DNA of 64,000 bases from contig JAUXWS010000087.1 in assembly GCA_030685015.1 (NCBI GenBank), positions 24,822-88,821 on the forward strand, in the 5' to 3' direction. The translations under genes were made by a program, and so were the position numbers. Origin of the DNA: a bacterium (GTDB lineage Bacteria > CAIWAD01). Within the stretch, counting starts at the first letter, position 1. The number at the start of each line of letters is the position of its first letter. Of the stretch, positions 3,255-55,805 are shown in pieces. Below the pieces are notes generated by a model. It worked only from the letters and a program-made list of their open reading frames with translations. It ran no database searches and was not told the DNA's origin.

Positions 3255-3301
3255 GCTTCAATCAGTCCAAATAAAGCTGATTGTTCGAGTCCTGCTTACT
3301 C

Positions 3302-4456: not shown

Positions 4457-4479
4457 TGTTTCCCCTGTTTGATCGTGAA

Positions 4480-6719: not shown

Positions 6720-7585
6720 GGCAGCATGGGTCCAAACACTTGGTGTATAGTCGAGCAGCGCGCCTCCGCGAGCAGCTTCCCCAGTTTACCTTCCGTCTGT
6801 TCCCGGTTGCGAAGCTGAGATCTGAAGACCCTCCGGATGGCGTGCTCCTCTGCACGGGATAGGTCGATGGGCATGCACCAAAAGGAGAACTGGCTGTCAA
6901 GTTCGTAAGGATGCAGGTAGATCACCGCCGGCCGCTGTTCGCGTTCCAAGCGGGCCAAGGCCCAGCGGCTGTATGCATAGGGAAGATGGCGGAAGTACCC
7001 GCCCCCCAAGGCCGGCAGGCGCAAGGGCCCCAACTGCACGACCGACAAGGGAATCTCTAACAGCTCCCCGCCGGACCCGACGGTCACTCGGTGGGCGCCC
7101 GGGGAAGCCTCTGGCACGCCATAGCGCGTTCCCCTGAAGGGGTATATAGAGCTGGAATAGCGAAACCCCGCCTGTGAGATCGCATCATAGGCCCACCACG
7201 TGGCCTTAGTAATGCTCATGGCCACGGCCCGGTAGCCCAGGACCTCCTGTCCGCTCAGATCCTGCAACAAGGCGCGTGCCCGGCGCAGGCTCTCGCCATA
7301 GACCGTGCGCTCCTGTTCAAAGACGCGGTGGTGGTGCCAGCCGTGGACGCCCAACTCGTGACCCTGCTCATGAATGCGCTTGACGAGGTTGGGAAAGGCC
7401 TCCGCCACTTCGCCAAGGACGAAGCACGTGCAGTGCACGCCCCTTTCCTCGAGTAGGCCCAGCATACGCTCCGTCAGGCGAACCACATCTTGGTGCGGGG
7501 GTACAATACGTCCACAAACGTGCAGCAGGCAACCAGACGAAAAGTCCTCCACATCCACCGACACAGCATGCAGCATTTGCGTCAT
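6716..7585 (-). CDS. polysaccharide deacetylase family protein (resembles the PEP-CTERM/EPS-locus subfamily)
   Basis: Start MTQMLHAVSVDVEDF (ATG 7585) overlaps the upstream stop by 4 nt. HELGVHGWHHHRVFE and ELLEIPLSV motifs. Confidence 0.7.
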   Translation of the reverse strand: MTQMLHAVSVDVEDFSSGCLLHVCGRIVPPHQDVVRLTERMLGLLEERGVHCTCFVLGEVAEAFPNLVKRIHEQGHELGVHGWHHHRVFEQERTVYGESLRRARALLQDLSGQEVLGYRAVAMSITKATWWAYDAISQAGFRYSSSIYPFRGTRYGVPEASPGAHRVTVGSGGELLEIPLSVVQLGPLRLPALGGGYFRHLPYAYSRWALARLEREQRPAVIYLHPYELDSQFSFWCMPIDLSRAEEHAIRRVFRSQLRNREQTEGKLGKLLAEARCSTIHQVFGPMLP

Positions 7586-8640: not shown

Positions 8641-8703
8641 GGGGTCCCTCCGCGGCCGGCCAACACATGGCCCTCTATTGTGCGCCGGCCGGTAGCGTGG
8701 ATC

Positions 8704-12958: not shown

Positions 12959-12961
12959 GGT

Positions 12962-15304
12962 TCACCTTTTCACGTTATAACGATACTTGGGGAAGAAACT
13001 CTCAGGCACATCATCAATTCCGTGCACGATCTGGTTGCGCTCGCAAAGGGTTTCGTAGGCGGCCCCATCCACAACAATCCGTTGCGTGCTATACGGATAT
13101 ATCACTTGTGAGAAGCCAAGTTTGAATTGAAAAAGCTCGTCATCACGGCCACCCAATCCTCCTCCCAAGTTAAGCCATTCGGCACCAGATTCCGCATAAT
13201 ACTCAAAAGCTTTGTAAAACATGAGTTTCGATGGCGCCCAGTTGAGATGGTCATCCGTGGTGCCGCCAAGGTGATATTGGACAATACCGCCAGTTCGCAC
13301 GAATAGACCACCGGCGACGACCTTTCCCGCTGGGTTCAGAACCGATATCAAAGCGACATTCGGGCTCAGAACACGACGAAAATCATCGAAATATGCCCCA
13401 CTGAAGAAGTAATAGCGAGCCGCATTGACTCGGGTCATTGTCTGCGCGTATAGTTTTTGAAATACAGTATAATCTTCCCAGTGGTTAATTCGGACTTCGA
13501 AACCAGCCTTCTGGAGTTTTCGGATTGCACGTTTGTGGCTGTTCCGCATGCCCTGCTCAAAAGTGGCCAGATCTTGCCGAAGATTGATCATTACAGTGTT
13601 GCCATGCTTGAAGATCTCCCCCATGGCGCTGGCTGTCTCTGAGAAACAGCCCAGCAACGGGTGGTTGCGGAGAAATAGTGATACAATGTTATTCTGATAG
13701 CAGTAATGTTTTAGAGCCTTCATCAACTCATTCACTTGTGATTCGAAAACAGCATAGACTAGTGGTCCAGGATAGCCATATGGACTATATGCATCCCAAA
13801 GTCTATTTTCGGTAAGAGTCGTTGGTACGAGCCGCAGCAGAAGTGGAACGAACAATTCAGTTTCCCCCAATGTGATGTGCAGTGCAAGTGAACGAACTTC
13901 TTCTTCGCGTGCGCATAGCTTAAGATAGCCCGGCAGGTGATAGAAGTCATGGGGCAATCTTCCCAACACACGTTCCAGCTCCGCAGGTTGATCCAACAAA
14001 TCCCGAATCCTGCTTCGAATTCTTAAGGCGGGCACCCCGACTCGAGTTTCATATCCTTCACTGTCAACGATCTGCACGCTACCCGCTCCGAGTATTGTCC
14101 AGGGACGGATCCGCAGCTGAGGCAATACGCAGCATCCAACTCCTGCGAAAACACCCTCCTCAATATTGGCACCACCGCCCAAATGGACCCCAGGACACAA
14201 GTGGACATGATTCTTAATCAGGCAGTCATGGTCGACACTGCAGGAAGTGTTGAGAATCACGTTGCAACCGATAGATGCTCCAGTATTGACCACAACTCCG
14301 GCTGCAATGAAGGTGCCCATTCCTATTGGAACATCATCGGCAATGACCGCCGAAGGATGGATTACTGCTCGAACTTGCACTCCAGATTTAACCAACCAAT
14401 GAAACACTGTCATCCTTAATTGGTTGCTGCCAAAACCAATGATAACACAGTCGCAGCCACCTGCGCCAAACATAGTTGAAGCGATCGGGCCATACACTGG
14501 CCGGCCAAGGCAAGTCTGGCCATGTAACTGAACATCGTCATCTAGAAATCCGACCAGTTGCAGTTCTCCACCCGACTTCTCGGTGCACAGCACGGCATCC
14601 CCGATCACCCGGCCATGCCCGCCAGCCCCTAGCACCATAATCCTAGTCTTGGGCGAATGACCAATAAACTCGGGCATGGTGGCGTACCTTGGATGGCTGA
14701 TGCCCTCCCTTCTCACCACAAGAGAAACGGTCTTCCAAAGAATCCAAAAGTCAAGCATCAGGGAGTGGCGCTCAACGTACTCCACATCGTGCTCGAAACG
14801 CTCCTCCCAACTCAAGGAGTTGCGGCCTCGGATCTGCGCCAAACCCGTAATCCCGGGCTTCACCTCATGGCGACGGGCTTGGCGCGGGGAATAGCGTGGA
14901 ATGTACTCGACCATCAAGGGGCGCGGACCCACCAAGCTCATCTTACCACGCATCACCAACAGCAATTCAGGCAGCTCGTCAAGCGATGTGGAGCGCAGCC
15001 ACGCGCCAAACGGAGGAATGCGCTCCTCATCTGGCAGCAGGCGGCCCTGTGCGTCACGGGCGTCCGTCATGCTGCGGAACTTGACCAGTTCGAACAAAAG
15101 CCCATGCAGCCCCGGCCGTGTTTGCCTGAATAGAACCGGACGCCCTAGTTTAAATGCGATGGCCAGGGCCAATCCCATGAACATCGGCGCGAGCAACACA
15201 AGGGCGACCGCCGAGGCGCCGATATCAAACAAGCGTTTACCTGCCCGCCGGTATAGCCCTTGGCGCTCTAACCGCGCGGACGCCCAGCCGGAATCTGGAA
15301 TCAC
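12962..15304 (-). CDS. tri-domain fusion: bacterial sugar phosphotransferase (PglC/WbaP C-terminal type), NeuD/PglD-like hexapeptide N-acetyltransferase, and FemAB-related acyltransferase domain
   Basis: Domain 1 is KRLFDIGASAVALVLLAPMF...SLVGPRPL...PGITGLAQI. Domain 2 is MVLGAGGHGRVI...hexapeptide repeats. Domain 3 is ...AARYYFFSGAYFDD...VQYHLGGTTDDHLNWAPSKLMFYKAFEYYAESGAEWLNLGGG. The likely start is a GTG overlapping the upstream TGA (GTGA at 15301-15304). The long N-terminal extension in the ORF table overlaps the upstream gene. Confidence 0.7.
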   Translation of the reverse strand: MIPDSGWASARLERQGLYRRAGKRLFDIGASAVALVLLAPMFMGLALAIAFKLGRPVLFRQTRPGLHGLLFELVKFRSMTDARDAQGRLLPDEERIPPFGAWLRSTSLDELPELLLVMRGKMSLVGPRPLMVEYIPRYSPRQARRHEVKPGITGLAQIRGRNSLSWEERFEHDVEYVERHSLMLDFWILWKTVSLVVRREGISHPRYATMPEFIGHSPKTRIMVLGAGGHGRVIGDAVLCTEKSGGELQLVGFLDDDVQLHGQTCLGRPVYGPIASTMFGAGGCDCVIIGFGSNQLRMTVFHWLVKSGVQVRAVIHPSAVIADDVPIGMGTFIAAGVVVNTGASIGCNVILNTSCSVDHDCLIKNHVHLCPGVHLGGGANIEEGVFAGVGCCVLPQLRIRPWTILGAGSVQIVDSEGYETRVGVPALRIRSRIRDLLDQPAELERVLGRLPHDFYHLPGYLKLCAREEEVRSLALHITLGETELFVPLLLRLVPTTLTENRLWDAYSPYGYPGPLVYAVFESQVNELMKALKHYCYQNNIVSLFLRNHPLLGCFSETASAMGEIFKHGNTVMINLRQDLATFEQGMRNSHKRAIRKLQKAGFEVRINHWEDYTVFQKLYAQTMTRVNAARYYFFSGAYFDDFRRVLSPNVALISVLNPAGKVVAGGLFVRTGGIVQYHLGGTTDDHLNWAPSKLMFYKAFEYYAESGAEWLNLGGGLGGRDDELFQFKLGFSQVIYPYSTQRIVVDGAAYETLCERNQIVHGIDDVPESFFPKYRYNVKR

Positions 15305-16506
15305 CTCATGAACTCCATCAAGACGCCCACCACTTCCCGCTGCTGGTCTTCCCGCAGTTCCGGGTAGATGGGAATGGCCAGGGACTGGTTGGCGGCGCAT
15401 TCGCTGACGGTAAAGTCGCCCGGGCCGTGACCCAGGTTGGCGAAGCAGTCCTGCAGGTGGAAGGGCACGGGGTAGTAGACCTCGTTGCCGATGCCGCGCG
15501 AGTTCAGGAAGGCGCGCAGCTCGTCGCGGCGGTCCACGCGCAGGACGAACTGGTTGTAGATGTGGCGGTCGCCCGGCCGCGCCCAAGGCAGGATCACGCC
15601 CCTGCGCCCCGCCATGTCAAGGGTCGCCGGGTCCAGGCCGGCCGGATCCACCACCAACCCGGCTTCCGCCAGCAGGCGCCGGTAGCGCTCGGCGTTGGCC
15701 TGGCGGGCCGCCGTCCACTCGTCCAGCTTGCCCAGCTTGACTGTGAGCACGGCCGCCTGGATGGCGTCCAGGCGGAAGTTGCCGCCGATGACGCGATGGT
15801 AGTACTTGGGCTTGCCCCCGTGGACGCGGAGAATCTCCAGGCGGGCGGCCCGCTCCTCGTTCTGGGTGACCACCATGCCGCCGTCCCCCACCCCGCCCAG
15901 GTTCTTGGAGGGGAAGAAGCTGAAGCAGCCGTACTGGCCCAGGCCGCCCACGCGCCGGCCCTGATACTCCGTGCCGATGGCCTGGGCGCCATCCTCGATG
16001 ACCGTCACGCCATGCCGGGCGGCGATCTCCACGATGGGGGCCAAGTCCGCACTCTGCCCGTACAGGTGGACGGGAATGATCGCCTTGGTGCGCGGCGTGA
16101 TGGCCGCCTCCAGGCGCGCCGGATCCAGGTTGAAGCTGCGCGGCTCGATCTCGACGAAGACCGGCGTGGCGCCCAGGCGGACCGGACAGCCGGCCGTGGC
16201 GAAAAAGGAGTAGGGCGGCGTGATCACCTCGTCCCCGGGGCCGACCCCCTCGGCCATGAGGGCGATGAGCAGGGCGTCCGTGCCGCTGGAGACGCCGCAG
16301 GCATGGGCGGCGCCCACATAGGCTCCCACCGCCTCTTCCAGCTCCTTCACCTTGGGCCCCAGGATGAAGTGTTGGGACTCCAGCACCTCCAGCACCGCCC
16401 GGTTGATCTCCTCGCGCTGGGTGGCGTACTGCGCCTTCAGGTCGAGCAGGGGAACACCCATCCTCAGCTTCCTTTCCTGTGCTCCTGGTCCAATGGTTTC
16501 GCTCAA
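15301..16506 (-). CDS. DegT-family aminotransferase (WbpE-like UDP-2-acetamido-3-oxo-glucuronate aminotransferase candidate)
   Basis: 401 aa. LLDLKAQY...GGMVVTQNEERAARLEILRVHG...GGNFRLDAIQAAVL. The real start may be the internal MGVPLLDL. Confidence 0.8.
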   Translation of the reverse strand: MSETIGPGAQERKLRMGVPLLDLKAQYATQREEINRAVLEVLESQHFILGPKVKELEEAVGAYVGAAHACGVSSGTDALLIALMAEGVGPGDEVITPPYSFFATAGCPVRLGATPVFVEIEPRSFNLDPARLEAAITPRTKAIIPVHLYGQSADLAPIVEIAARHGVTVIEDGAQAIGTEYQGRRVGGLGQYGCFSFFPSKNLGGVGDGGMVVTQNEERAARLEILRVHGGKPKYYHRVIGGNFRLDAIQAAVLTVKLGKLDEWTAARQANAERYRRLLAEAGLVVDPAGLDPATLDMAGRRGVILPWARPGDRHIYNQFVLRVDRRDELRAFLNSRGIGNEVYYPVPFHLQDCFANLGHGPGDFTVSECAANQSLAIPIYPELREDQQREVVGVLMEFMR

Positions 16507-24424: not shown

Positions 24425-24632
24425 CCTGTCATTCTGCAGAACTGTCATCCTGAGGACTTGTCATCCCAGCGAAAGCTGGGATCCCATCCTTTTTTGACCA
24501 GCGCCACGCGTGGCACTTGGTGGCCCGCTATCCCGGCACCGGCGCCGTGAGGCGACGGGATGGGTGGTATGGATGATCCTCCCGCGGGATCCCAGCTTCC
24601 GCTGGGATGACATCAAATCTGAGATGACGGAC
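24425..24632. repeat. MITE-like module of nested inverted repeats in the 5' region of ychF
   Basis: A 26-bp near-perfect inverted repeat: gtcatcccagcgaaagctgggatccc (24461-24486) versus gggatcccagcttccgctgggatgac (24588-24613). Each copy is itself a hairpin (cccagc-GAAA-gctggg). Three direct TGTCATYC copies lie on the left (24428, 24444, 24460) and two GATGACA copies on the right. Confidence 0.6.
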
Positions 24633-29259: not shown

Positions 29260-31076
29260 ACGGGATGGGCATGGGCGGGGGCATGCGCCATGGCCGCGCC
29301 TCCGACAGCGAGCGCGGACTGGACGGCCGCCTCCTGCGCCGTCTCACCGCCTACCTGCGGCCGCACTGGCGGGGAGCCCTCCTCGCCCTGCTCATGATCC
29401 TGGGCGCCGCCGCCCTGGAGACGGCCGTGCCCCTGGTGACGCGCCACGCCATCGACGTGCATGTGGCGGGGCGCGACCTGGCCGGGCTCTTCCGATCCCT
29501 CCTGGCCTTCCTGGGACTCTCCCTGGGCGCCTTCCTGCTGCGCTACGCCCAGCAGCTGACCACGGGCTGGATCGGCCAGAGCATCGTCCTCAAGCTGCGC
29601 GGCCGGGTCTTCGCCCGCGTCCTGCGCCTGCCCCTGGCCTGGTTCGACCGCCACCCCGTCGGTCAGGTGATGAGCCGCATCACCAACGACGTGGAATCCT
29701 TGAACGAGCTGTTCACGGGCGGCCTCATCCTCATCTTCCAGGACATCCTGCTGCTGGTCGCCATCGCCGCCGCCCTCCTCTGGATGGACTGGCGCCTGGC
29801 TTTGGTCCTCTTCGCCGTGGTGCCCTTCATCTTCCTGGCCAGCTTCCAGTTCAAACGGTTGACCCGGGCCGCCTTCCGCCGCGTGCGGGCCCTGGTGGGC
29901 GAAGTGACGGGCTTCCTGCAGGAGACGATCACGGGCATGGCCGTGGTCCAGCTCTTCCGGCGGGAGCGCGGCACCCGGGAGCGCTTCGCCCGCATGAACG
30001 ACGAGCTGATGCGGGAGAATGTCCGCACCATCTTCTACTTCGCCGTCTTCTTCCCGCTGATGGAGCTGCTGGGCAGCGTGGCGACGGCGGCCATCATCTG
30101 GGCGGCGGCGGGACGCCTGCTGGAGGGCAGCCTGAGTTTCGGCGCCCTGGTCGCCTTCCTGGCCTACGCCGATCGCTTCTTCCGCCCCATCCGCGACCTG
30201 GCCGAGAAGTACAACATCCTGCAGAGCGCCATGGCCGCCTCCGAGCGTGTCTTCGAACTGCTGGACGAGCCGGCCGCCCTGGCTGGTGGCCTGGTGGGCG
30301 CGCCCGGCGGTCCGCCCGCTCCGCCACGGCGGGGAGAGGTGGTGTTCGAGGGGGTCTGTTTCGCCTATGAAGGGGAGAACTGGGTGCTGCAGGACCTCTC
30401 CTTCCGCATTGAAGCCGGCACCAGCACGGCCCTGGTGGGCTGGACGGGCGCCGGCAAGAGCAGCGTGGCCGGCCTGCTGCTGCGCTACTACGAGTTCCAG
30501 CGCGGACGAATCCTGGTGGACGGCGTGGACATCCGCCAGTGGGATGCGGCCGCCCTGCGCGGGCGCATGGCCATCGTCCTCCAGGATGTCTTCCTCTTCT
30601 CCGGGACGGTGGCCGACAACATCCGCCTGGGGCGCGAGCTGCCGGTGGGGGCGGTGGAGGCGGCGGCGCGGCGCACCGGCCTGGACCGCCTGGCCGGACA
30701 GCGCGCCCTGGGCTATGAGGAGCCGGTGGGGGAACGGGGTCAGCTGCTCAGCGGCGGCCAGCGCCAGCTGGTCAGCTTCTCGCGGGCCCTGGCCGGGGAT
30801 CCGGCCATCCTGGTGCTGGACGAGGCGACCAGCAGCGTGGACTCCTTGTCGGAAGAGCTGATCCAGCAGGCCATCGCCCAAATGATGAGCGGACGCAGCT
30901 CTCTGGTCATCGCCCATCGCCTGTCCACCATCCGCGCCGCCGACCAGATCCTGGTCCTGCACCAGGGCCGGCTGGTGGAGCGGGGCCGCCACGACGAGCT
31001 GCTGGCGGCGCAGGGCTTCTACCATCGCCTCTGGCAGCTGGAGCAGCCGGTGGGGGAGGCGGACCGTGCAGCTTGA
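29256..31076 (+). CDS. ABC transporter permease/ATP-binding protein (type I exporter half-transporter, subunit 2)
   Basis: ATGA overlap with subunit 1. Walker A (GWTGAGKSS), signature (LSGGQRQLVSFSRAL) and Walker B (ILVLDEATSSVD) motifs. Confidence 0.85.
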   Translation: MNGMGMGGGMRHGRASDSERGLDGRLLRRLTAYLRPHWRGALLALLMILGAAALETAVPLVTRHAIDVHVAGRDLAGLFRSLLAFLGLSLGAFLLRYAQQLTTGWIGQSIVLKLRGRVFARVLRLPLAWFDRHPVGQVMSRITNDVESLNELFTGGLILIFQDILLLVAIAAALLWMDWRLALVLFAVVPFIFLASFQFKRLTRAAFRRVRALVGEVTGFLQETITGMAVVQLFRRERGTRERFARMNDELMRENVRTIFYFAVFFPLMELLGSVATAAIIWAAAGRLLEGSLSFGALVAFLAYADRFFRPIRDLAEKYNILQSAMAASERVFELLDEPAALAGGLVGAPGGPPAPPRRGEVVFEGVCFAYEGENWVLQDLSFRIEAGTSTALVGWTGAGKSSVAGLLLRYYEFQRGRILVDGVDIRQWDAAALRGRMAIVLQDVFLFSGTVADNIRLGRELPVGAVEAAARRTGLDRLAGQRALGYEEPVGERGQLLSGGQRQLVSFSRALAGDPAILVLDEATSSVDSLSEELIQQAIAQMMSGRSSLVIAHRLSTIRAADQILVLHQGRLVERGRHDELLAAQGFYHRLWQLEQPVGEADRAA

Positions 31077-31083
31077 GCCGATC

Positions 31084-32106
31084 ATGCTGCTGGCGGACGG
31101 GGTGACCGCCTCCTTCTGGGTCCTGCTCATGGCCGGCCTGCTGGGGGGGCTCACGGCCGGCCTCTTCGGCGTGGGCGGCGGCGTCATCGTCACGCCCCTG
31201 CTCATCTCCCTGGGCGTGCCGCCCCGCATCGCCGCCGGCAGCATGAACGTGGCCATCATCGCCAATGCGGCCGACTCGCTGGTGCACGACCTGCCGCGGC
31301 GCCGGGTCGACTGGCGGCTGGGTCTGTTCATGGGGGCGGCCGCCGTGGCGGGCGGGCAAGCGGGGACATTTTGGCTGGGCCGCCTGGGCAAGCCGGAATT
31401 GGTGGACCTCATGATCCGCGCCGGCTTCCTTGTCCTGCTGGCCTACATGGCCTATCACCTGCTGCGCAAGAAGCTGTCCCGCGGGGACACCGCCCGCCGC
31501 TGGCTCTTCCACATGCCCCTGCGCTACCAGAGTCCCTGGGAGGAGGCGCCGGTCAGCGCCCTGGGTCCCGTCCTGGCCTCGCTGGGGGGCGGCCTGGTGG
31601 CATCCTTGCTGGGAGTGGGCGGCGGCATCTTCTACGTGCCGGTCCTCCTGGCCCTCTTCCACCGCCCCCTGCAGGAGCTGGTCCCCGTCAGCCAGATCGC
31701 CGTCCTGCTGGGCACCTTGTCCGTCAGCACGGGCCATGTGCTGCACACGGGCTTCATCGATCCGCGCCTCTCCCTCATCCTGATCACGGCGGGCAGCGTG
31801 GGCACGGTGGTGGGCACGCGGCTCAAGTCGCACCTGGAGAGCCGGCTGTTGGAGCGCCTGCTCGCCCTGGTGCTCCTGGCCGCCGCGCTGCGCCTCGCCC
31901 TGCCCCTGATCGGGTTGGAGGCATCCCCCGCGCGGGCCGCGACGACCCTGGGGCGGGACTGGCTGCGGCCCTTCGCCGACTGGTGCGCCCGCGATCCGCT
32001 TCACCTTTGGCTGGGCACGGTGGGCGTGGCCCTGGGCATGGCACCGCTTCTCTCCTGGCTGCAGCATGCCCTCCTGGACCGCTTGCGCCGACGGAGCGCC
32101 ACCTGA
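31084..32106 (+). CDS. TauE/SafE (TSUP, DUF81) family anion-exporter permease
   Basis: Duplicated 4-TM halves each carrying a GVGGG motif (LFGVGGGVIVTPLL and LLGVGGGIFYVPVL). Confidence 0.75.
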   Translation: MLLADGVTASFWVLLMAGLLGGLTAGLFGVGGGVIVTPLLISLGVPPRIAAGSMNVAIIANAADSLVHDLPRRRVDWRLGLFMGAAAVAGGQAGTFWLGRLGKPELVDLMIRAGFLVLLAYMAYHLLRKKLSRGDTARRWLFHMPLRYQSPWEEAPVSALGPVLASLGGGLVASLLGVGGGIFYVPVLLALFHRPLQELVPVSQIAVLLGTLSVSTGHVLHTGFIDPRLSLILITAGSVGTVVGTRLKSHLESRLLERLLALVLLAAALRLALPLIGLEASPARAATTLGRDWLRPFADWCARDPLHLWLGTVGVALGMAPLLSWLQHALLDRLRRRSAT

Positions 32107-32132
32107 TGATCATCAGCAGCCCACGGGGACAA

Positions 32133-32338
32133 CCCCCGGGCAACCCCCGGGCAACACCAGGGCAACACCAGGGCAACACCAGGGCGGCACCAGGGCAACA
32201 CCAGGGCAACACCAGGGCAACACCAAGGCGACACCAGGGCAACACCAGGGCAACACCAGGGCGACACCAGGGCAACACCAGGGCAACACCAGGGCAACAC
32301 CAGGGCGACACCAGGGCGACACCAGGGGGCCAATTCGC
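32133..32338. repeat. 11-bp tandem repeat array, about 18 copies (consensus CACCAGGGCAA)
   Basis: Two cccccgggcaa units are followed by caccagggcaa units with occasional A-to-G or G-to-A variants. The array fills the whole gap between the TauE stop (32104-32106) and the reverse-strand stop at 32340-32342. It has no stop codon in any of the six frames. Confidence 0.95.
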
Positions 32339-32339
32339 C

Positions 32340-32624
32340 TCAGTAGCAGGCGTCGCGTCCAGTGCTGATGCTGAAAGCCGCCCGGTCTCGACCCTGGCGG
32401 TAATCCACCACCGCCTCCTCCACCCACTCCCGCTCCTGGGAATCCATCAGCACGAGGATCCCATTGACGTGAAGCTGTTTATCACTCTCCTGCGGCTCGT
32501 CCAGAGCCAGCCCCAGGCGGGGCCCGCCTCACCCGTGGCCGGCGATGGTGACACGCAAGCCCGCGCCGGGGTGTTCGGCCAGGATGGCCTGCAGGCGCTC
32601 CCGCGCCTTGTCGGTGATCTGCAC
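32340..32624 (-). CDS. IscA/HesB-like iron-sulfur cluster insertion protein with an in-frame TGA (candidate selenocysteine) at the conserved Cys position
   Basis: Reverse-strand translation from GTG 32624 gives (M)QITDKARERLQAILAEHPGAGLRVTIAGHG-TGA-GGPRLGLALDEPQESDKQLHVNGILVLMDSQEREWVEEAVVDYRQGRDRAAFSISTGRDACY*. It aligns to E. coli IscA [23 protein letters not shown] with the TGA (32529-32531) opposite Cys35. The hairpin GCCCC-gcct-GGGGC begins 6 nt after the TGA. Confidence 0.55.
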
Positions 32625-32688
32625 ATGGCCTCCCAGGATTCGCACAATCTGCTTCCACCCGCACAACCATGAGGGCGGGGCTGCCAGC

Positions 32689-49424: not shown

Positions 49425-49557
49425 ACATGGGCTGTGAATCAGGTGTGGCCAGACCTTGGGTGCCAGCATCCCGCTGTCCGGTGCTACAGGCATGGGGCAT
49501 CAGGTCGTCACCGGGTTTGTTGTGAATCCTATGGCCTGTGCCAGTCTGCGGACAGGT

Positions 49558-49790
49558 GTCCGACACTTCGTCCGACACCTGGCTAACCTTTGCCCCCCGA
49601 CCGGGGATGGGGGCGGCGCAAGCGCTCACTGACATGGACAGATCTGGCTTGACCAGGCCACTTCCTCCCCGGTCATCCATACATACATCCAGCTTACGAT
49701 CCATTCTCGGGGTGATTGATCGCGGTGATCATGGACTCAGGTCGTGGGATTGTCAAGATGCTGGGACAGGAGTCGGACGAAGTGTCGGAC
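49558..49790. repeat. MITE-like unit bounded by 19-bp perfect terminal inverted repeats
   Basis: gtccgacacttcgtccgac (49558-49576) and gtcggacgaagtgtcggac (49772-49790) lie 195 bp apart in a 650-bp non-coding gap. The left repeat contains a direct duplication of GTCCGACAC. Confidence 0.55.
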
Positions 49791-49845
49791 TCCCTGGTAG
49801 ATTCTGCCCACTTCCTGCAGGCAGGCCGCGGATCATCCCGGGGCA

Positions 49846-50361
49846 TCAGTCCGCCCAGGACGCCGCCATGCGGCGCATGACGCCGCGGTGCTCCGCCTCG
49901 TGCTGCAGCAGGTGCGTCAGGATCCAGTCCGGGGCCGCCGCCCCTTCCAGTCCCAGGACCAGCTCTCCCAGTCCATCCTCCCGCAGGCGGAGGCATTCCG
50001 TCACAAGCCGCGAGCGGGACTCCTCCAACGCCGCGAGCAATTCCGGCAGGGTGGCGGTCCCGGCCCGGGCCAGCCGTCCGTCCGGGTCCAGGACATCCGC
50101 GATGGGCAGCAGCGCCAGTGCCTCGGCGGGAATCTCCCGGCCCAGCAGGTCGCAGTAGAGCCAGTCCAGCTCGATGGCGGCCAAGTGGGCCAGGTGGGCG
50201 GCCAGACTGTTGGGGAACTGGGGCGAGGACCAATGCAGACGCTCGGGCGGCACCGCCGCCACGACGCGCAGGGTCCGTCGCCGGCCCTCCTCCAGTTGGG
50301 CCAGCAGCAGGCTGAGCCTGCCATCGCCCCCCGCCGCCGGCAAGCGAAAGGGATCTCTCAT
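49846..50361 (-). CDS. DinB/YfiT-like (DinB_2) four-helix-bundle metalloenzyme family protein
   Basis: Start MRDPFRLP. The LLQHEAEHRGVMRRM C-terminal His motif is typical of the DinB_2 family. The Arg-rich upstream extension is discounted. Confidence 0.55.
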   Translation of the reverse strand: MRDPFRLPAAGGDGRLSLLLAQLEEGRRRTLRVVAAVPPERLHWSSPQFPNSLAAHLAHLAAIELDWLYCDLLGREIPAEALALLPIADVLDPDGRLARAGTATLPELLAALEESRSRLVTECLRLREDGLGELVLGLEGAAAPDWILTHLLQHEAEHRGVMRRMAASWAD

Positions 50362-50837
50362 CCGGTCCGACCCTTGACGGGGCGGGCGGGCACGCCGGCC
50401 ACCACGGCGCCGTCGGGCACGTCCTTCGTCACCACGCTGCCCGCCCCCACCATCGCGTCCCGGCCGATCGTCACGCCGCAAAGGATGGTGGAACCAGTGC
50501 CGATGGAGGCTCCCGCCAGCACCCTCGTGCGCTCCAGGGTCCAGTCCTCCTCGGTCTGGGGCGAGCCGTCCGCCCGCGTGGCGCGGGGGCGCCGGTCATT
50601 GATGAAGGAGACGTTGTGGCCCACAAAGACGCCGTCGCCGATCTCCACCCCCTCGCAGATGAAGGTGTGGCTGCTGATCTTGCAGTTGCGGCCGATGCGC
50701 GCGCCCTTCTGGATCTCCACGAAAGCGCCCACCTTGCTCCCATCGCCGATCTCGCAGCCGTAGAGGTTGACAAAGCAGAAGATCCTGACCCCCTCGCCCA
50801 GCTTGACGTCCGGCGCGATCCTCGTATAAGCCTCCAT
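50358..50837 (-). CDS. hexapeptide-repeat acyltransferase (WbbJ/maltose O-acetyltransferase-like)
   Basis: Left-handed beta-helix repeats (VGHNVSFINDRRP...IGTGSTILCGVTIGRDAMVGAGSVV). Confidence 0.75.
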   Translation of the reverse strand: MEAYTRIAPDVKLGEGVRIFCFVNLYGCEIGDGSKVGAFVEIQKGARIGRNCKISSHTFICEGVEIGDGVFVGHNVSFINDRRPRATRADGSPQTEEDWTLERTRVLAGASIGTGSTILCGVTIGRDAMVGAGSVVTKDVPDGAVVAGVPARPVKGRTG

Positions 50838-50867: not shown

Positions 50868-51881
50868 CTACGACAGCTCAGCCAGCTCCACCCGGCGGCC
50901 GCCCTGGCGCAGGCTGTGCTCGGCGGCCTCCAGCATGCGCGTCACGCGCAGGGCGTGGGCCGGGCCGCAGAGGGGTTCGGCGCCCGTGCGGATGCCGGCC
51001 AGGAAGTCACGGGCCATGCCCGCCAGCGCCTCGCCGCCGTCCAGGCGCGGCGCGCGCATGTCCCCCGTGCGATAGCTGACCAGCGTGCGCCAGATCTCCT
51101 CGGGCCGGGTCAGTTCCACGCCGCGGTCGTACACCTTGATCTTCTCGCTGGGCTCCATGTCATCGTACACGACCATGTGGCGGTCGCCGCCGATGAGGAT
51201 GCGCCTCACCTTGACGGGGGCGATCCAATTGACGTGGAAGTGGGCGATGAGCTGGTCCGGATAGAAGACCGTCAGGTAGGCCAGATCCTCGTGCTGGTAG
51301 TAATGGCGGGCGCCGCAGGCCTGCACGGCCTGGGGCTCCACCCCCGTCAGGTGGTCGCAGATGCTGAGGTCGTGGGGCGCCAGGTCCCACACCACGTTGG
51401 TGTCGTGCTGGAAGAGGCCCAGGTTGACGCGCACGCTGTCGAAGTAAAGCAGGCGGCCCAGTTCGCCGCCGTCCACCAGCTCGCGGATCTTGCGCACGGC
51501 CCCGGTGTAGAGGAAGGTGTGGTCCACCATCAGGGTCAAGCCCTTGCCCCGGGCCAGTCCGATCAGTTCGCGGGCCTGGGCGGCGCTTTCCGTGAAGGGC
51601 TTCTCCACCAGCAGGTGGCAGCCCGCCTCCAGGGCCAGCCGTCCCAAGTCGAAATGGGTGGAGAGGGGCGTGGCCAGCGCCACGGCGTCCAGCCCTTGCC
51701 CGAGCATCTGCTCGAAGCCGGCGGCCACCCGTGTTCCGGGAAATCGCCGGGCGGCGGCGGTGCGGCGCCCCTCGTCGAGGTCGGTGATCCAGAGCTCCTC
51801 CACGTCGGGCAGGGCCTGGAAATTGCGCACCAGATTGGGTCCCCAGTAGCCGAGCCCCACCACGCCGAATCTCATGATCAC
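50868..51881 (-). CDS. Gfo/Idh/MocA-family oxidoreductase (second WbpB-like sugar-nucleotide dehydrogenase)
   Basis: MRFGVVGLGYWGPNLVRNF...EKPFTESAAQAREL. Confidence 0.75.
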   Translation of the reverse strand: MIMRFGVVGLGYWGPNLVRNFQALPDVEELWITDLDEGRRTAAARRFPGTRVAAGFEQMLGQGLDAVALATPLSTHFDLGRLALEAGCHLLVEKPFTESAAQARELIGLARGKGLTLMVDHTFLYTGAVRKIRELVDGGELGRLLYFDSVRVNLGLFQHDTNVVWDLAPHDLSICDHLTGVEPQAVQACGARHYYQHEDLAYLTVFYPDQLIAHFHVNWIAPVKVRRILIGGDRHMVVYDDMEPSEKIKVYDRGVELTRPEEIWRTLVSYRTGDMRAPRLDGGEALAGMARDFLAGIRTGAEPLCGPAHALRVTRMLEAAEHSLRQGGRRVELAELS

Positions 51882-51933
51882 CTCGCTGGTCGACCGGACA
51901 GTGTCACTCTTCTTCGCTATCGCTTTCGGTACT

Positions 51934-51966
51934 GATCTCGATATCGATATCGATATCGGTATCGAT
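51934..51966. repeat. hexanucleotide repeat block (ATCGAT/GATATC)n
   Basis: gatctcgatatcgatatcgatatcggtatcgat lies in the divergent promoter region. Confidence 0.9.
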
Positions 51967-52046
51967 TCCGGGTTCGGCCCTCAGACCAATGTCCATGCGC
52001 GAAGCCACTTATAGACTGTGAGTCTGACTGCAAGCCGAGAAACAAT

Positions 52047-52103
52047 CTCGATCACGATATCGATATCGATAGCGATAGCGATAGCGATAGCGATAGCGAT
52101 AAC
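52047..52103. repeat. hexanucleotide repeat block, GATATC x2 then (AGCGAT)x6
   Basis: tcgatcacgatatcgatatcgatagcgatagcgatagcgatagcgatagcgataa lies 115 bp upstream of the DegT-like start. Confidence 0.9.
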
Positions 52104-52217
52104 TGTGGTCAAGGTCGGATGAAGGCCCCGGTTTCTCCAAGCCGCGCCCAATCGCCACCTTTCCGCCTGCCCGAGCGGCCGGGGCGGCCGCCGGGGGACC
52201 ATCAGCACGGAGCTGTC

Positions 52218-53336
52218 ATGCCCGTCCCCTTCCTTGATCTGAAGATCCAATACCAGAGCATCAAACCCGAGATCGACGAAGCCATTGCCGGCATCCTCGC
52301 CCGGACCGAGTTCGTGACGGGTCCCACCGTCCGCGCCTTCGAGGAGGCCTTCGCCGCCGCCCACGGGGTCCGCTTCTGCGCCACCTGCAACAGCGGCACG
52401 GCGGCCCTGCATCTCATGCTGTGGGGGTTGGACATCGGACCCGGCGACGAGGTGCTCACCGCCGCCAACACCTTCATGGCGACGGCGGGCGGGATCAAGC
52501 TGGCCGGCGCCCGGCCCCGCCTGGCCGACGTGCGCGAGGAGGACTTCAACCTGGACCCGGAGCGCGTGGAGGCGGCCCTCACGCCGCGCACCCGCGCCCT
52601 CCTTCCCGTCCACCTCTACGGCCAGTGCGCCGATCTGGCCCCGCTCGCGGAGATCGCCCGCCGCCACGGCCTCCTGCTTCTGGAGGATGCCGCCCAGGCC
52701 CACCTCGCCACCTTCGAGGGCGGGCATGCCGGGCAGCATGGACGCGCCGCCGCATTCAGTTTCTACCCGGGCAAGAACCTGGGAGCCTACGGCGAGGGCG
52801 GCGCCGTGCTCACCAACGACGAGGACCTCTGGCGGCGCATCTGCCGCCTGCGCGACCACGGCATGCCCGAGAAGTACCTGCACACCGAGTGGGGCCACAA
52901 CTACCGGCTGGAGGGCCTGCAGGGGGCCGTCCTCGGCGTCAAGCTGCGCCATCTGGAAGCCTGGACGGAGGCCCGTCTCCAGGTGGCCGCCTGGTACCGG
53001 GAGGAGCTGGCCGGCCTGCCCGGCCTCCTTTGTCCGCAGGAGTTGCCCGGCCGCCGCCATGTCTACCACTTGTTCGTCATCCGCGTGACGCCGGAGTCCG
53101 GCATCAGCCGCGATGCCCTGATGGCCCGTCTGCAGCAGGCGGGAATCGGCTGCGGCCTGCACTATCCGCGCCCCGTCCACCTGCAGCCGGCGGCGGCGGA
53201 ACTGGGCTACCAGGCCGGGGACTTCCCGGTGACGGAGCGCCTCGCTGGCGAGATCCTCAGCTTGCCCATGTACGCGGAGCTGACGCGGGAGCAGGTGGCG
53301 GAGGTGGGTCGAATCCTGCGCTCAGCCCTGTCCTGA
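52218..53336 (+). CDS. DegT/DnrJ/EryC1/StrS PLP-dependent sugar aminotransferase (third copy in window)
   Basis: Start MPVPFLDLKIQYQ. FSFYPGKNLGAYGEGGAVL carries the PLP lysine. The upstream 33 codons in the ORF table are discounted. Confidence 0.85.
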   Translation: MPVPFLDLKIQYQSIKPEIDEAIAGILARTEFVTGPTVRAFEEAFAAAHGVRFCATCNSGTAALHLMLWGLDIGPGDEVLTAANTFMATAGGIKLAGARPRLADVREEDFNLDPERVEAALTPRTRALLPVHLYGQCADLAPLAEIARRHGLLLLEDAAQAHLATFEGGHAGQHGRAAAFSFYPGKNLGAYGEGGAVLTNDEDLWRRICRLRDHGMPEKYLHTEWGHNYRLEGLQGAVLGVKLRHLEAWTEARLQVAAWYREELAGLPGLLCPQELPGRRHVYHLFVIRVTPESGISRDALMARLQQAGIGCGLHYPRPVHLQPAAAELGYQAGDFPVTERLAGEILSLPMYAELTREQVAEVGRILRSALS

Positions 53337-54382
53337 TGGGAGCTCCCATCGTCAGCCGCAACCCGCCGGCCATCTTCCTGGTGGGATGCCTCCCCCCACC
53401 CGTCGGGGGCGTATCGATCCATGTGCAGAGACTGACGGCTCGACTGGAGGCCGAGGGTCATCGTTGGCGCCTGCTGGACGACGGCCGCATTCCACCCCGG
53501 CGCCTGCCCCTGCAGCTGGCCAAGGCCCTGCTTGCCGCCCGGCTGGCGGGATTCCGCCTGGTGCACGTGCATAGCGGCAATTGGCGCGTGCGCTTTCTTT
53601 GCGCCGTGCTGGGCCGCTGGCTCGGTCTGCCCGTCCTGCTGACCATGCACAGTTTCCGGGATCCCGGTAGCGCTCGCACTCGACGCCTGGCCCGGACGGC
53701 CCTCAAGTGGGCTTCGGGGATCGTGGCCGTCAGCGAGGAGGTGCGCAGCCGGTGCCTGGAGCACGGCGCCCCCGCCGCCCGCCTGCGGGTCCAGTACGCC
53801 TACCTGGACCCGCCTCGCGCTGAGACCGCCACCCTTCCGGACGGCGTCGAGGACTTCCTGCGCGGGCATGGACCGATCCTGGCGGCCAGCGCCTTCCGTC
53901 TGCGTATTCTGCAGGGGCAGGATCTCTACGGCCTGGACCTGCTCATCGACCTGATGCACCAGCTGCGCACCTGGCACACCCGGGCCGGCCTGGTCTTCGT
54001 CCTGCCGGAGACGGGCCTGCCGGACTATCTGGAACAATGCCAGGCGAAACTTGCCGACCTCGGTCTGGAGAGGGACCTCCTCATCGTGAGGGAGAGCATC
54101 GACTTCACGGCCCTGCTGCGCCGAAGCGACCTGTTGGTGCGGCCCACCACCACGGATGGCGACAGCATCTCCCTGCGCGAGGCGCTCCACGTCGGGTGCC
54201 GGACCCTCGCCAGCGACGCCGTGCCGCGGCCCGCTGGCGTGGCGACCTTCCGTTCGCGGGACCCTGCCCACCTCCTCCAGCGCTGCCGGGAGGTGCTCGC
54301 CGATCCCGCCCCGCCACCTCGTTCCGGCCAGGACGGATGGGCCGGCCTGGCGCAGGCCTACGCGACGGTCATGGATGGCTGA
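53336..54382 (+). CDS. glycosyltransferase family 4-like
   Basis: TGATG overlap with the upstream gene. Motifs IFLVGCLPPPVGGVSIHVQRL and later EX7E-type region. Confidence 0.65.
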   Translation: MGAPIVSRNPPAIFLVGCLPPPVGGVSIHVQRLTARLEAEGHRWRLLDDGRIPPRRLPLQLAKALLAARLAGFRLVHVHSGNWRVRFLCAVLGRWLGLPVLLTMHSFRDPGSARTRRLARTALKWASGIVAVSEEVRSRCLEHGAPAARLRVQYAYLDPPRAETATLPDGVEDFLRGHGPILAASAFRLRILQGQDLYGLDLLIDLMHQLRTWHTRAGLVFVLPETGLPDYLEQCQAKLADLGLERDLLIVRESIDFTALLRRSDLLVRPTTTDGDSISLREALHVGCRTLASDAVPRPAGVATFRSRDPAHLLQRCREVLADPAPPPRSGQDGWAGLAQAYATVMDG

Positions 54383-55805
54383 GAGTCTGCGCCAGCGAAG
54401 CCTGGCCGGACTGGGCTGGGCCTTCGGGCAGCAGGCGGGCAGCCAGCTCAGCCGTGTCCTCTTCTCCATCCTCCTGGCGCGCGTGCTGGCGCCGGACGAC
54501 TACGGCCTGCTGGGGCTTGGCCTGCTCTGCGTGAACTTTCTGCAGATCCTGGCCACCTTCGGGCTTGGCGACGGCCTGATCCAGGCCGGCCGCCGGGCCT
54601 CGCCCGGGGAGTTGTCCACTCTCTTCCGCCTGCACGCCCTCCTGGCCAGCAGCGCCGCCTTGACCCTCCTGTTGGCCGCGCCGGCCATCGCGGCCTGGTA
54701 CCGGCTGGACGGCCTGTCCGACATCCTGCGCCTCCTGGCCCTGACCTTCCTCTTCTCCATCGGCATCGTGGTGCCGCGCGCGGCCCTGGAGAAGGATCTG
54801 CACTTTGAAATCGTCGCCCGGCGGGCGGTGCCCGCCACGGTGGTGAGCGGGCTGCTGGCCCTGGCGGCGGCCCACGCCGGGTGGGGTGTCTACAGCCTGG
54901 TGGTCCTTTCACTGGCGGAACCGGCCATCCTGGCCCTCAGCCTGCTGCCCTGGATCCCGCGCCACCGGCCGGCTCCGCTGCGGCAGGTGCTTCCTGTGAT
55001 GCGCTACTCGTGGAAGCTGGCCTTGGCCGGGGTGGTGGGTTTCGCCGGCAAGAACATCGACGCGGTGGTGATCGGCCGCTGGATCGGCGCGCGGGATCTG
55101 GGGCTCTACCAATTGGGCTTCCGCCTGACCCGCCTGCCCAGCCAGAACCTGGCCGCCGTGCTGGACCGCGTGCTCTTTCCCGCCTACGCCAGCATCCAGG
55201 ATGATCCGGCCCGCGTGGCGCGGGCCTATGCGCGGGTGCTGCGCGGCATGTCCTGGCTGATGTTCCCGGTCATGACCCTGGTCGCCGCCTCCTTGGAGTG
55301 GGTGGCGCCCCTGCTCTTGACCCACCGCTGGGACGGGGTGGTGCCGGTGATGCAGGTCTTTTGCGCGCTGGCGGTGGTGCAGACCATGGGCCGCAGCATG
55401 AACGCGGTCATTCAAGCCCTGGGCCGCAGCGATGTGGTGCTGGCCTGGGTCTTTCTGGCCGCGCCGCTCAACGTGGCCGCCGTGGCCATCAGCGCCCGCT
55501 GGGGCATCCTGGCGGTGGCGGGGGCCTTGGTGGCGACCCGGCTGGTCATCCAGCTGGGGCAGCAGCACGTCCTCGCCCGTCTGCTCGGAGTGCCCCACGG
55601 CCGCTTGCTGAAAGCGGAGTTTGCCGGCCTGCCCCTAGCCCTGCTGCAGGGGTCCTTCTTTGCGATGGGCGCATGGGCCGGCTGGCACCCGCTGACGTTG
55701 AGCGCACTGGCGGCCGCGGTGGTCCTGATGCCGGCGGGCAGGCTGGTGGCCCGGCGCGGAGTCCGCGGGGCGCTGGCCTGGCTGACCGGGGACTTCAGCT
55801 CGTGA
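54375..55805 (+). CDS. Wzx-like polysaccharide flippase (MOP superfamily), second copy
   Basis: ATGGCTGA 8-nt overlap with the upstream stop. 476 aa with about 12 TM helices. Conserved N-terminal region [22 protein letters not shown]. Confidence 0.75.

What the first reader, a model, noticed from the sequence alone, without database searches (positions are those of the whole stretch)
51934..52103. Hexanucleotide simple-sequence repeats in the divergent promoter between two glycan operons
Two blocks flank the 337-bp region between the reverse-strand Gfo/Idh/MocA-AT-DinB operon and the forward-strand DegT-GT4-flippase operon. The first is (ATCGAT/GATATC)n over about 33 bp. The second is GATATC x2 followed by (AGCGAT) x6. 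Short tandem repeats in promoters of surface-polysaccharide genes are classic contingency loci. Repeat-number changes would alter promoter spacing or regulator binding and could phase-vary the glycan. The units are also GATC/ClaI/EcoRV-type palindromes, which are potential methylation targets.
Basis: partly seen in the sequence, partly recalled or inferred. Interest (0 to 1): 0.55.

Follow-up and report, generated by a model that had tools for sequence, protein, structure and literature searches.

The report
Variable hexamer repeats in glycan-operon leader
Two short six-base repeat tracts between two sugar-coat gene clusters of an uncultured bacterium are real and differ in copy number between almost identical strains, but they lie outside the likely promoter, so they are more likely a slippage-prone, hairpin-forming stretch of the messenger's leader (a possible fine-tuning knob) than a classic on/off switch.

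Summary
Two hexamer arrays (51916-51966 and 52050-52103, units GATATC/GATAGC) lie in the 342-bp gap between a Gfo/Idh/MocA-acetyltransferase-DinB operon (-) and a DegT-GT4-flippase operon (+), and none of 100 shuffles reaches their match counts. The arrays are inverted copies of each other. Contigs from other samples are about 99.8% identical in the flanking genes yet carry four left-arm alleles (8, 10, 11, 11 hexamers) and two right-arm alleles (9, 8), so the tracts are hypermutable. An unrelated 11-mer array between convergent genes at 32130-32327 varies just as much (12-22 units), so polymorphism alone does not show selected phase variation. In about 80%-identical relatives (one named Candidatus Delongbacteria) the only conserved intergenic sequence is a compact back-to-back promoter-like module. 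In the window it sits at 52111-52162, entirely on the DegT side of both arrays. The arrays therefore cannot change -35/-10 spacing. They are predicted to be the first ~200 nt of the Gfo-operon leader, folding into one long hairpin. Three relative lineages carry GA(G/T)WWC-type hexamer arrays just upstream of start codons in this operon, one pair again with inverted arms. Verdict: a real hypervariable repeat locus, with a tuning role plausible and an on/off switch unsupported.

The parts
51916..51966 (.). Left hexamer array (arm 1): GCTATC GCTTTC GGTACT GATCTC GATATC x3 GGTATC GAT.
   Evidence: Has 8, 10, 11 or 11 hexamers in four alleles from other samples.
51967..52049 (.). Non-repetitive core between the arms. 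It is identical in all same-species contigs that cover it and always in the same orientation.
   Evidence: On its own it is not significantly structured (z = -1.1).
52050..52103 (.). Right hexamer array (arm 2): GATCAC GATATC x2 GATAGC x5 GATAAC. It is the reverse complement of arm 1.
   Evidence: Has 9 hexamers in the window and 8 (with a GATATC interruption) in other strains. Several contigs break inside it.
52111..52162 (.). Conserved bidirectional promoter-like module. On the - strand: TTGGAG (52140-52135), 18 nt, GACCTT (52116-52111), reading towards Gfo. On the + strand: TTTCTC (52132-52137), 18 nt, CACCTT (52156-52161), reading towards DegT. The TCGCCAC box at 52152-52158 is invariant.
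   Evidence: It is the only intergenic sequence conserved in relatives L012, L063, L080, L081, L087, L088 and L091. It holds the only matches to TT[GT]NNN-N16-19-NANYTT in the gap. Promoter function is inferred, not shown.
51876..52104 (-). Predicted 5' leader of the Gfo-acetyltransferase-DinB mRNA (about 228 nt). Arms 2 and 1 pair into one long hairpin. The Shine-Dalgarno sequence GAGGTGA lies at about 51884-51878.
   Evidence: RNA fold -97.1 kcal/mol, z = -5.5, 0 of 200 shuffles as stable. Alleles L002 and L003 fold to -103.5 and -107 kcal/mol with the same fold around the ribosome-binding site. The transcription start is inferred from the module's position.
50868..51875 (-). Gfo/Idh/MocA sugar-nucleotide oxidoreductase gene, first gene of the leftward operon.
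   Evidence: Pfam. Best NCBIfam hit is UDP-GlcNAc 3-dehydrogenase, below the curated cut-off.
49846..50837 (-). Hexapeptide acetyltransferase gene (50358-50837) and DinB-family gene (49846-50361).
   Evidence: Pfam. Gene calls in the same-species contigs.
52218..55805 (+). Rightward operon: DegT aminotransferase (52218-53336), GT4 glycosyltransferase (53336-54382) and Wzx-type flippase (54375-55805).
   Evidence: Pfam. Gene calls in L001.

Best explanation
The finding is a pair of slippage-prone hexanucleotide microsatellites arranged as the two arms of an inverted repeat about 190 bp long overall (51916-52103). [quoted passage not shown] Shown: the arrays are real, mutually complementary, and change copy number far faster than the flanking DNA mutates. 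They lie outside the only conserved intergenic block. Three ~80%-identical relative lineages (L036; L087/L092; L088) carry hexamer arrays of the same GA(G/T)WWC type just upstream of start codons in this operon, at the Gfo gene or at the acetyltransferase gene. Inferred: the conserved block is the promoter pair. Leftward transcription then starts at about 52103, so both arrays are transcribed as the first ~200 nt of the Gfo-operon leader and pair into one long, nearly continuous RNA hairpin. Copy-number changes lengthen or shorten this stem. They also move the core DNA relative to the DegT promoter, whose -35 box is 28 bp from arm 2. Any effect on glycan-gene expression would be graded, for example through leader stability or double-strand RNase processing. 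It would not be an on/off switch by promoter spacing. The variation may be largely neutral.
For: Reality and excess over chance. Inverted symmetry, including non-palindromic GATAGC units on the right and GCTATC units on the left. Hypermutability: 4 and 2 alleles against about 0.2% flank divergence. Breaks of Logan contigs inside arm 2 in the window's own sample suggest mixed lengths within that sample (inference). Conserved module: invariant AA-GTGGCGA...GG-TTGG..AA in 7 lineages, 47-56 nt from the DegT ATG in most of them, while the distance to the Gfo ATG ranges from 37 to about 690 nt. In relatives whose gap is only 128-139 bp (L080, L091), both promoters must lie in this module. The only loose -35/-10 matches in the window's gap are the two in the module. 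Leader hairpin: z = -5.5, kept in three alleles. [quoted passage not shown] L087 and L092 differ by one unit and have inverted GTTCTC/GAGAAC arms. The window's proximal leader GAAGAAGAGTGA is homologous to GAGATGAAGTGA in L036 and L088.
Against: No transcription start is mapped, and the promoter type of this candidate phylum is unknown. The tool's sigma-70 scan finds nothing anywhere in the gap, and a second promoter in the core is not excluded. The hairpin follows almost automatically from two arrays built of palindromic units, and the core adds no structure, so structure alone does not prove function. Arm lengths do not co-vary (8/9, 10/8, 11/8). The predicted fold around the ribosome-binding site is the same in all alleles, so no direct translational effect is predicted. 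An array with no possible promoter role is equally polymorphic.
Confidence: 0.5

Rival explanations
1. Neutral variable-number tandem repeats. The leader is a permissive site where slippage creates and destroys arrays, and neither repeat number nor the hairpin affects expression.
For: The 11-mer array between convergent genes varies as much (12-22 units). The gap length in relatives ranges from 128 to 775 bp, showing tolerance of insertions. Relatives L063/L012/L089, L080 and L091 have no array here. The array edges are decayed units. One haplotype is stable across five samples.
Against: Hexamer arrays of one sequence class (GA[GT]WWC) recur on the same strand just upstream of start codons of this operon in three further relative lineages and nowhere else in about 400 kb of other loci. 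The inverted-arm architecture occurs twice independently.
Confidence: 0.3
2. Classic contingency locus. Repeat-number changes switch one or both glycan operons on and off by changing promoter geometry, the binding of a regulator to the arrays, or methylation of the palindromic units.
For: The tracts are hypervariable and sit beside surface-polysaccharide genes. Arm 2 ends 28 bp upstream of the putative DegT -35 box, where activators bind in other systems (general knowledge). Contig breaks in the arrays suggest heterogeneity within samples. Known precedent: the (TA)n tract in the divergent hifA/hifB promoter (PMC2651432).
Against: The arrays lie outside the conserved promoter module, so -35/-10 spacing and inter-promoter distance are untouched. 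A 6-bp period does not keep one helical face, so it fits poorly with simple repeated operator sites. No regulator, methyltransferase or recombinase was found among the roughly 40 neighbouring genes scanned. GATC is not in the repeat unit.
Confidence: 0.14
3. Invertible promoter (inverton). The two arms are the inverted repeats of a DNA segment flipped by a site-specific recombinase, as at Bacteroides capsule loci.
For: Inverted repeats of 50-55 nt flank an 83-88 bp core upstream of polysaccharide genes in a member of the FCB superphylum.
Against: The core has the same orientation in all 9 same-species contigs that contain it. The arms are variable microsatellites rather than a fixed recombinase site. 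No recombinase was found in the scanned neighbours. The conserved promoter-like module lies outside the would-be invertible segment.
Confidence: 0.03
4. A small upstream ORF encoding an acidic dipeptide-repeat leader peptide: minus strand 52008-51904, MASRMDIGLRAEPGIDTDIDIDIEISTESDSEEE. Gene callers predicted it in other contigs, and its length would change in frame.
For: An ORF is called in most same-species contigs, as 34 or 36 aa in different contigs (my stop-to-stop translations for the three haplotypes are 34, 38 and 40 aa). The GAK-WWC units read as Asp/Glu-X codons. Its stop lies in a motif shared with L036 and L088.
Against: No Shine-Dalgarno sequence precedes the GTG or the internal ATG. 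The 19-nt super-period in L036 rotates the reading frame. The ATGA overlaps seen in relatives are trivial. No peptide is conserved across lineages.
Confidence: 0.03

Closest known systems
Moraxella catarrhalis uspA2 AGAT repeats in the 5' untranslated region (Attia and Hansen 2006, as summarised in PMC4679880)
   Same: A strain-variable tandem repeat lies between the promoter and the start codon of a surface-structure gene, and copy number tunes expression rather than shifting a reading frame.
   Different: That case is a single tetranucleotide array with 6-23 copies and an experimentally mapped leader. Here two hexamer arrays in inverted orientation would form a long hairpin, the leader position is only inferred, and no expression data exist.
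Haemophilus influenzae hmw1A/hmw2A 7-bp repeats (PMC2424069; PMC2651432)
   Same: An upstream repeat with a unit longer than 4 bp varies between and within isolates and gives a graded, stepwise change in mRNA level.
   Different: That case is a single direct array of 9-28 units in a host-adapted pathogen. Here there are 5-9 units per arm with palindromic units, in an environmental uncultured lineage.
H. influenzae hifA/hifB (TA)n in overlapping divergent promoters (PMC2651432)
   Same: Simple-sequence repeats lie in a divergent control region serving two surface-structure operons.
   Different: The (TA)n tract lies between -35 and -10 and changes their spacing. The arrays here lie outside the conserved promoter module, so the defining mechanism is not met.
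Intergenic TAACTGA heptamer direct repeats upstream of start codons in Beggiatoaceae, Cyanobacteria and some Bacteroidetes (PMC4679880)
   Same: These are lineage-typical short tandem arrays in environmental bacteria, oriented with the downstream gene and placed just before start codons. They differ between close strains by whole-unit indels, and their function is unknown but proposed to be post-transcriptional.
   Different: Those are one heptamer sequence dispersed at about 170 sites per genome, often replacing the ribosome-binding site. Here the hexamers differ between lineages (GATATC, GAGAAC, GAGTAC), have been seen only in this operon so far, sit upstream of a normal ribosome-binding site, and are paired as inverted arms.
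Bacteroides capsular-polysaccharide invertons (own knowledge; Jiang et al. 2019 was not consulted here)
   Same: Inverted repeats flank a short segment upstream of polysaccharide loci in the same superphylum.
   Different: No inverted orientation was seen, no recombinase was found, and the arms are variable microsatellites.

Membership tests
SSR-mediated contingency (phase-variable) locus | A tandem simple-sequence tract long enough to slip | tested here: met
   5.5 and 7.8 copies of a 6-bp unit, far above chance.
SSR-mediated contingency (phase-variable) locus | Repeat-number differences between otherwise near-identical strains | tested here: met
   4 left-arm and 2 right-arm alleles against about 0.2% flank divergence.
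SSR-mediated contingency (phase-variable) locus | High-frequency, reversible length variation within one clonal population | not testable with these tools
   Only consensus contigs are available. Contig breaks inside arm 2 in SRR13727517 and two JGI samples, and inside arm 1 in SRR12926096, are suggestive only. One haplotype is identical in 5 samples.
SSR-mediated contingency (phase-variable) locus | Tract placed so that a unit change disables a promoter (between -35 and -10) or a reading frame | tested here: not met
   The arrays are non-coding with a 6-bp unit. Both lie outside the conserved promoter-like module at 52111-52162. The promoter assignment is comparative inference, not mapping.
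SSR-mediated contingency (phase-variable) locus | Variability that is special to the locus rather than shared by any repeat in the genome | tested here: not met
   The control 11-mer array between convergent genes shows 12, 17, 19, 19 and 22 units in the same strains.
Leader/upstream 'volume-control' repeats (uspA2, hmwA type) | Repeat lies between the transcription start and the start codon | tested here: inconclusive
   This follows if the conserved module is the promoter. No 5'-end data exist.
Leader/upstream 'volume-control' repeats (uspA2, hmwA type) | Expression level changes stepwise with copy number | not testable with these tools
   Needs reporter or RT-qPCR data.
Invertible promoter (inverton) | Inverted repeats flanking a short segment | tested here: met
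   Arms of 52-55 nt, 78-83% complementary, 70-90 nt apart.
Invertible promoter (inverton) | Both orientations present in populations | tested here: not met
   9 of 9 contigs have the same orientation. Reads were not available.
Invertible promoter (inverton) | Site-specific recombinase encoded nearby | tested here: inconclusive
   None was found among the roughly 40 ORFs scanned with Pfam. Some ORFs (for example 58.5-61.3 kb) were not scanned.
Curated structured RNA families (Rfam 15) | Match at or above a family's gathering score | tested here: not met
   No hit in the whole window. Only sub-threshold plant miRNA-precursor hits (36 bits against 110 and 200) appear, reflecting a generic long hairpin.
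Dispersed palindromic elements (REP/MITE type) | Many copies of the same element in one genome | tested here: inconclusive
   No second copy of the arrays in the 64-kb window. The rest of the genome was not available.

The most novel reading that the evidence does not exclude
The arrays belong to a clade-specific class of cis-elements in Delongbacteria-like bacteria. These would be hexamer (GA[G/T]WWC) repeat tracts, often paired as inverted arms, kept by selection in the leader and intercistronic spacers of this acetamido-sugar operon. They would act as an evolvable RNA-level rheostat, as a double-stranded processing or stability stem whose length mutates by slippage, or as a platform for a repeat-binding protein. 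That would give uncultured environmental bacteria a heritable but rapidly adjustable setting for surface-glycan output.
Probability: 0.2. Interest if true: 0.6.

Novelty: new member of a known kind. Interest (0 to 1): 0.36.

Why it matters
Repeat-driven variation of surface structures is documented almost entirely in host-adapted pathogens. This locus is a hypervariable repeat site beside polysaccharide genes in an uncultured environmental lineage, in a clade whose nearest named relative is Candidatus Delongbacteria. The natural alleles are already in public metagenomes, so the effect of repeat number can be tested directly with synthetic constructs. The comparative result also carries a practical caution. 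Repeat polymorphism next to glycan genes is not enough to call phase variation, because a control repeat with no regulatory position varies equally. The analysis also yields a candidate bidirectional promoter consensus for a phylum with no experimental promoter data.

Tried and rejected
(1) Sigma-70 promoter and intrinsic terminator consensus scans of 51700-52400 found nothing, so the hairpin is not followed by a T-run and is not an intrinsic attenuator.
(2) Rfam gave no family at gathering score.
(3) Inverton: no flipped core in 9 contigs, and none for the other inverted-repeat pair at 49555/49767 in 5 contigs.
(4) Upstream ORF or leader peptide: inconsistent across lineages.
(5) I tested whether AC[CT]TTG is a genome-wide -10/-7 box. 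There were 11 non-coding hits against about 10 expected by my own rough estimate, so there is no enrichment, and I dropped it as evidence.
(6) Core palindromy beyond the repeats is not significant.
(7) Scans of genome contigs and metagenome contigs with the Gfo protein returned no relative between 82% and 100% identity, so the age of the arrays within the species lineage could not be bracketed.
(8) NCBIfam naming of the pathway enzymes gave only hits below the curated cut-offs. The 'acetamido-sugar' assignment is therefore an inference from the oxidoreductase, aminotransferase and acetyltransferase trio.
(9) Literature searches for the sample accessions and for the relative's NCBI genus name gave nothing useful.
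(10) One relative (P0004, with a 376-bp gap) had no retrievable DNA.

Full report
**1. Observation**

The gap between the Gfo/Idh/MocA gene (50868-51875, minus strand) and the DegT gene (52218-53336, plus strand) is 342 bp. GC content drops there to 47-55% against about 70% in the flanks. Tandem Repeats Finder reports two period-6 arrays, at 51934-51966 (5.5 copies) and 52055-52101 (7.8 copies).

Pattern searches give 15 and 17 matches where 0.6 and 2.5 are expected. No shuffle reaches those counts.

In hexamer register the arrays read as follows:
- Left: GCTATC GCTTTC GGTACT GATCTC GATATC x3 GGTATC
- Right: GATCAC GATATC x2 GATAGC x5 GATAAC

- Leftward: oxidoreductase, hexapeptide acetyltransferase and DinB.
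- Rightward: DegT aminotransferase, GT4 glycosyltransferase and Wzx-type flippase, with more glycan genes out to 64 kb.

**2.

The two arrays are reverse complements of each other, with arms of 52-55 nt that are 78-83% complementary and 70-90 nt apart. This is more than a side effect of palindromic units. The non-palindromic GATAGC units on the right are mirrored by GCTATC units on the left.

As single-stranded DNA or RNA the gap folds into one long hairpin (z = -6.0 and -4.5). Rfam sees only this generic hairpin, as sub-threshold miRNA-precursor hits. The 88-nt core alone is not significantly structured (z = -1.1).

**3. Population evidence**

An exact-protein look-up found 19 contigs encoding the identical Gfo protein in JGI and Logan assemblies. 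The flanking genes differ from the window by 0-1 SNP in 2030 bp and 6-10 SNPs in 2165 bp. The core and proximal leader are identical.

| Haplotype | Left arm (hexamers) | Right arm (hexamers) | Loci |
|---|---|---|---|
| Window type | 8 | 9 | window, L006 (+ L001) |
| H2 | 10 | 8 | L002, L004, L007, L008, L009 |
| H3 | 11 | 8 | L003 (L011 has the same left arm; its contig ends inside the right arm) |
| H4 | 11, with different interruptions | incomplete | L005 |

The gap lengths are 342, 348 and 354 bp.

Several contigs end inside an array: L001, L005, L006 and L011 inside arm 2, and L010 inside arm 1. With a 31-mer graph, the window's five-unit GATAGC run would assemble without a branch. The break in SRR13727517 therefore suggests mixed lengths within that sample. 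This is my inference from how Logan contigs are built, not a measurement.

Against very fast switching, haplotype H2 is identical in five samples.

**4. Control**

The window holds another array, 17-18 copies of an 11-mer at 32130-32327, between the 3' ends of convergent genes. No promoter role is possible there. In the same strains it has 17, 22, 19, 19 and 12 units. Copy-number polymorphism is thus a general property of tandem arrays in this organism. It cannot by itself be read as selected phase variation.

**5. Comparative evidence on the promoters**

No relatives exist between 82% and 100% protein identity. About ten lineages sit at 79-82%, and NCBI names one of them Candidatus Delongbacteria. 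They keep the divergent DegT/Gfo layout, but the gap ranges from 128 to 775 bp.

Only one block is conserved in all of them and in the window. On the Gfo-direction strand it reads AARGTGGCGA-N7-8-GGCTTGGRRAAR-N13-15-nACYTT(G).

It reads as two back-to-back promoters whose -35 boxes overlap on opposite strands:
- Towards Gfo: TTGGRR, 17-18 nt, nACYTT.
- Towards DegT: TTTCYC, 17-18 nt, CACYTT.

In L080 and L091 the whole gap is 128-139 bp, so both promoters must lie in this block. The block is 47-56 nt from the DegT start in six of seven lineages. Its distance to the Gfo start varies from 37 to about 690 nt.

In the window the block is at 52111-52162. It contains the only loose -35/-10 matches in the gap. 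Both arrays lie on the Gfo side of it. This is inference, since nothing is mapped and the tool's sigma-70 scan is negative. It is nevertheless the best available placement of the promoters.

**6. Consequence for mechanism**

Repeat changes cannot alter -35/-10 spacing or the distance between the two promoters. The leftward transcript is predicted to start near 52103. In that case arm 2, the core and arm 1 form the first ~200 nt of a 228-nt leader. That RNA folds into one long stem (-97 kcal/mol, z = -5.5).

The stem is kept in the other alleles (-103.5 and -107 kcal/mol). The fold around the ribosome-binding site is unchanged. Any effect would therefore act through leader length, stability or processing of a long double-stranded stem, or through DNA upstream of the DegT promoter. 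It would be graded rather than all-or-none.

**7. Recurrence in relatives**

Across about 70 loci from other species (about 400 kb), period-6 arrays occur only in the ~80% relatives' copies of this operon:

| Locus | Units | Position |
|---|---|---|
| L036 | GAGTAC/GAGACTC, more than 15 units | ends about 25 nt before the Gfo ATG |
| L087 and L092 | GAGAAC/GATTAC, 5 versus 6 units | ends 17 nt before the Gfo ATG |
| L088 | GAGGAC/GAGAAC | just upstream of the acetyltransferase ATG |

All are on the Gfo-operon strand and share the form GA(G/T)WWC with the window's units.

L087 and L092 also carry the inverse units (GTTCTC) near the promoter module, so inverted hexamer arms again flank an insert there. 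In that case the insert is a 23S_rRNA_IVP gene.

The window's proximal leader GAAGAAGAGTGA aligns with GAGATGAAGTGA in L036 and L088.

Several relatives also have hairpins with repeated CACGAAG-type arms in the spacer between Gfo and the acetyltransferase gene.

This recurrence is the main argument that the arrays are not pure junk. Other relatives lack them (L063, L012, L089, L080, L091), so they are not essential.

**8. Rivals**

- Neutral variable repeats remain a strong alternative (0.3).
- The classic promoter switch, regulator array or methylation reading is possible but lacks its defining geometry (0.14).
- An inverton is unlikely: 9 of 9 contigs have one orientation, no recombinase was found, and the promoter-like module lies outside the segment.
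- A repeat-encoded leader peptide is unlikely.

**9. Comparison with known systems**

By position the closest experimentally studied cases are the uspA2 AGAT repeats in a 5' untranslated region and the hmwA 7-bp repeats, both of which give graded control (PMC4679880, PMC2424069).

That paper also found no link between hexanucleotide repeats and phase variation in H. influenzae.

The nearest environmental parallel is the TAACTGA heptamer arrays upstream of start codons in Beggiatoaceae, Cyanobacteria and some Bacteroidetes. Their function is likewise unknown (PMC4679880).

**10. Verdict**

This is a real, hypervariable, hairpin-forming pair of hexamer repeats in the likely leader of a glycan operon. 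It is a new member of the known class of intergenic variable repeats near surface-structure genes. A tuning role is plausible but untested, and the specific on/off promoter mechanism is not supported. Interest is moderate (0.36). It would rise if read-level heterogeneity and allele-dependent expression were shown.

Noticed in passing
window 32130-32327: An 11-bp tandem repeat (GGCAACACCAG, with GGCGACACCAG and GGCAACCCCCG variants) of 17-18 copies lies between the 3' ends of the TauE gene (31066-32106, +) and a minus-strand small gene. Copy number is 12, 17, 19, 19 and 22 in different samples, and gene callers sometimes extend TauE through it (433 or 457 aa).
   Followed up: yes
window 32342-32666 (minus strand): A HesB/IscA-like gene has an in-frame TGA at 32531-32529 (...VTIAGHG-TGA-GGPRLGLALDEP...), followed at once by the GC hairpin GGCGGGCCCCGCC. 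With Cys substituted for the TGA, the read-through product matches Pfam Fe-S_biosyn across both halves (E = 3.6e-08). This is a candidate selenocysteine-containing HesB-like protein.
   Followed up: partly
window 24426-24612: The divergent gap between genes ending at 24428 (-) and starting at 24623 (+) holds three direct TGTCATCC boxes. It also holds a 27-nt inverted repeat (24459-24485 / 24586-24612, 96% complementary), each arm of which is itself a small hairpin (CCCAGC-GAAA-GCTGGG). This could be a regulator binding array or a REP-like element.
   Followed up: no
window 49555-49581 and 49767-49793: A 27-nt inverted repeat (93% complementary, 185 nt apart), with the internal direct repeat TCCGACAC, lies in the 584-bp gap upstream of the beta-CASP/metallo-beta-lactamase gene. 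The orientation of the enclosed segment is the same in 5 other contigs.
   Followed up: partly
window 1900-16500: A second polysaccharide cluster lies on the minus strand: flippase, pyruvyl transferase, GT4 x2, deacetylase, GNAT, DegT and a Bac_transf-PglD fusion. Its GC content is much lower (47-63% against about 70%), which suggests a horizontally acquired or variable glycan island.
   Followed up: partly
L087 2506-2702; L089 2506-2708 (= L012 ~3103-3130); L091 1636-1801; L092 1664-1870; L080 3006-3178: In the ~80% relatives the spacer between the Gfo and acetyltransferase genes (120-200 bp) carries a long hairpin whose arms are themselves short tandem repeats: CACGAAG/CTTCGTG types, CACGAATGA in L091, GCAGATGAC in L080. 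The window has only a 30-bp spacer and lacks it.
   Followed up: partly
L087 931-1356 and L092 1-510: A 23S_rRNA_IVP (four-helix-bundle) gene sits inside the Gfo leader, flanked by inverted hexamer arms, (GTTCTC)n and (GAGAAC)n, about 550 nt apart. The layout resembles the stem-flanked intervening sequences in which this gene family was first found.
   Followed up: no
L063 4706-4893 and L012 4170-4360: Downstream of the DinB gene the relatives carry mini-arrays of 8-mers (CACAGAGN x3-4, CGAAGACT x3) arranged as two direct copies of about 40 nt. This is further evidence that short tandem arrays are common in intergenic DNA of this clade.
   Followed up: no
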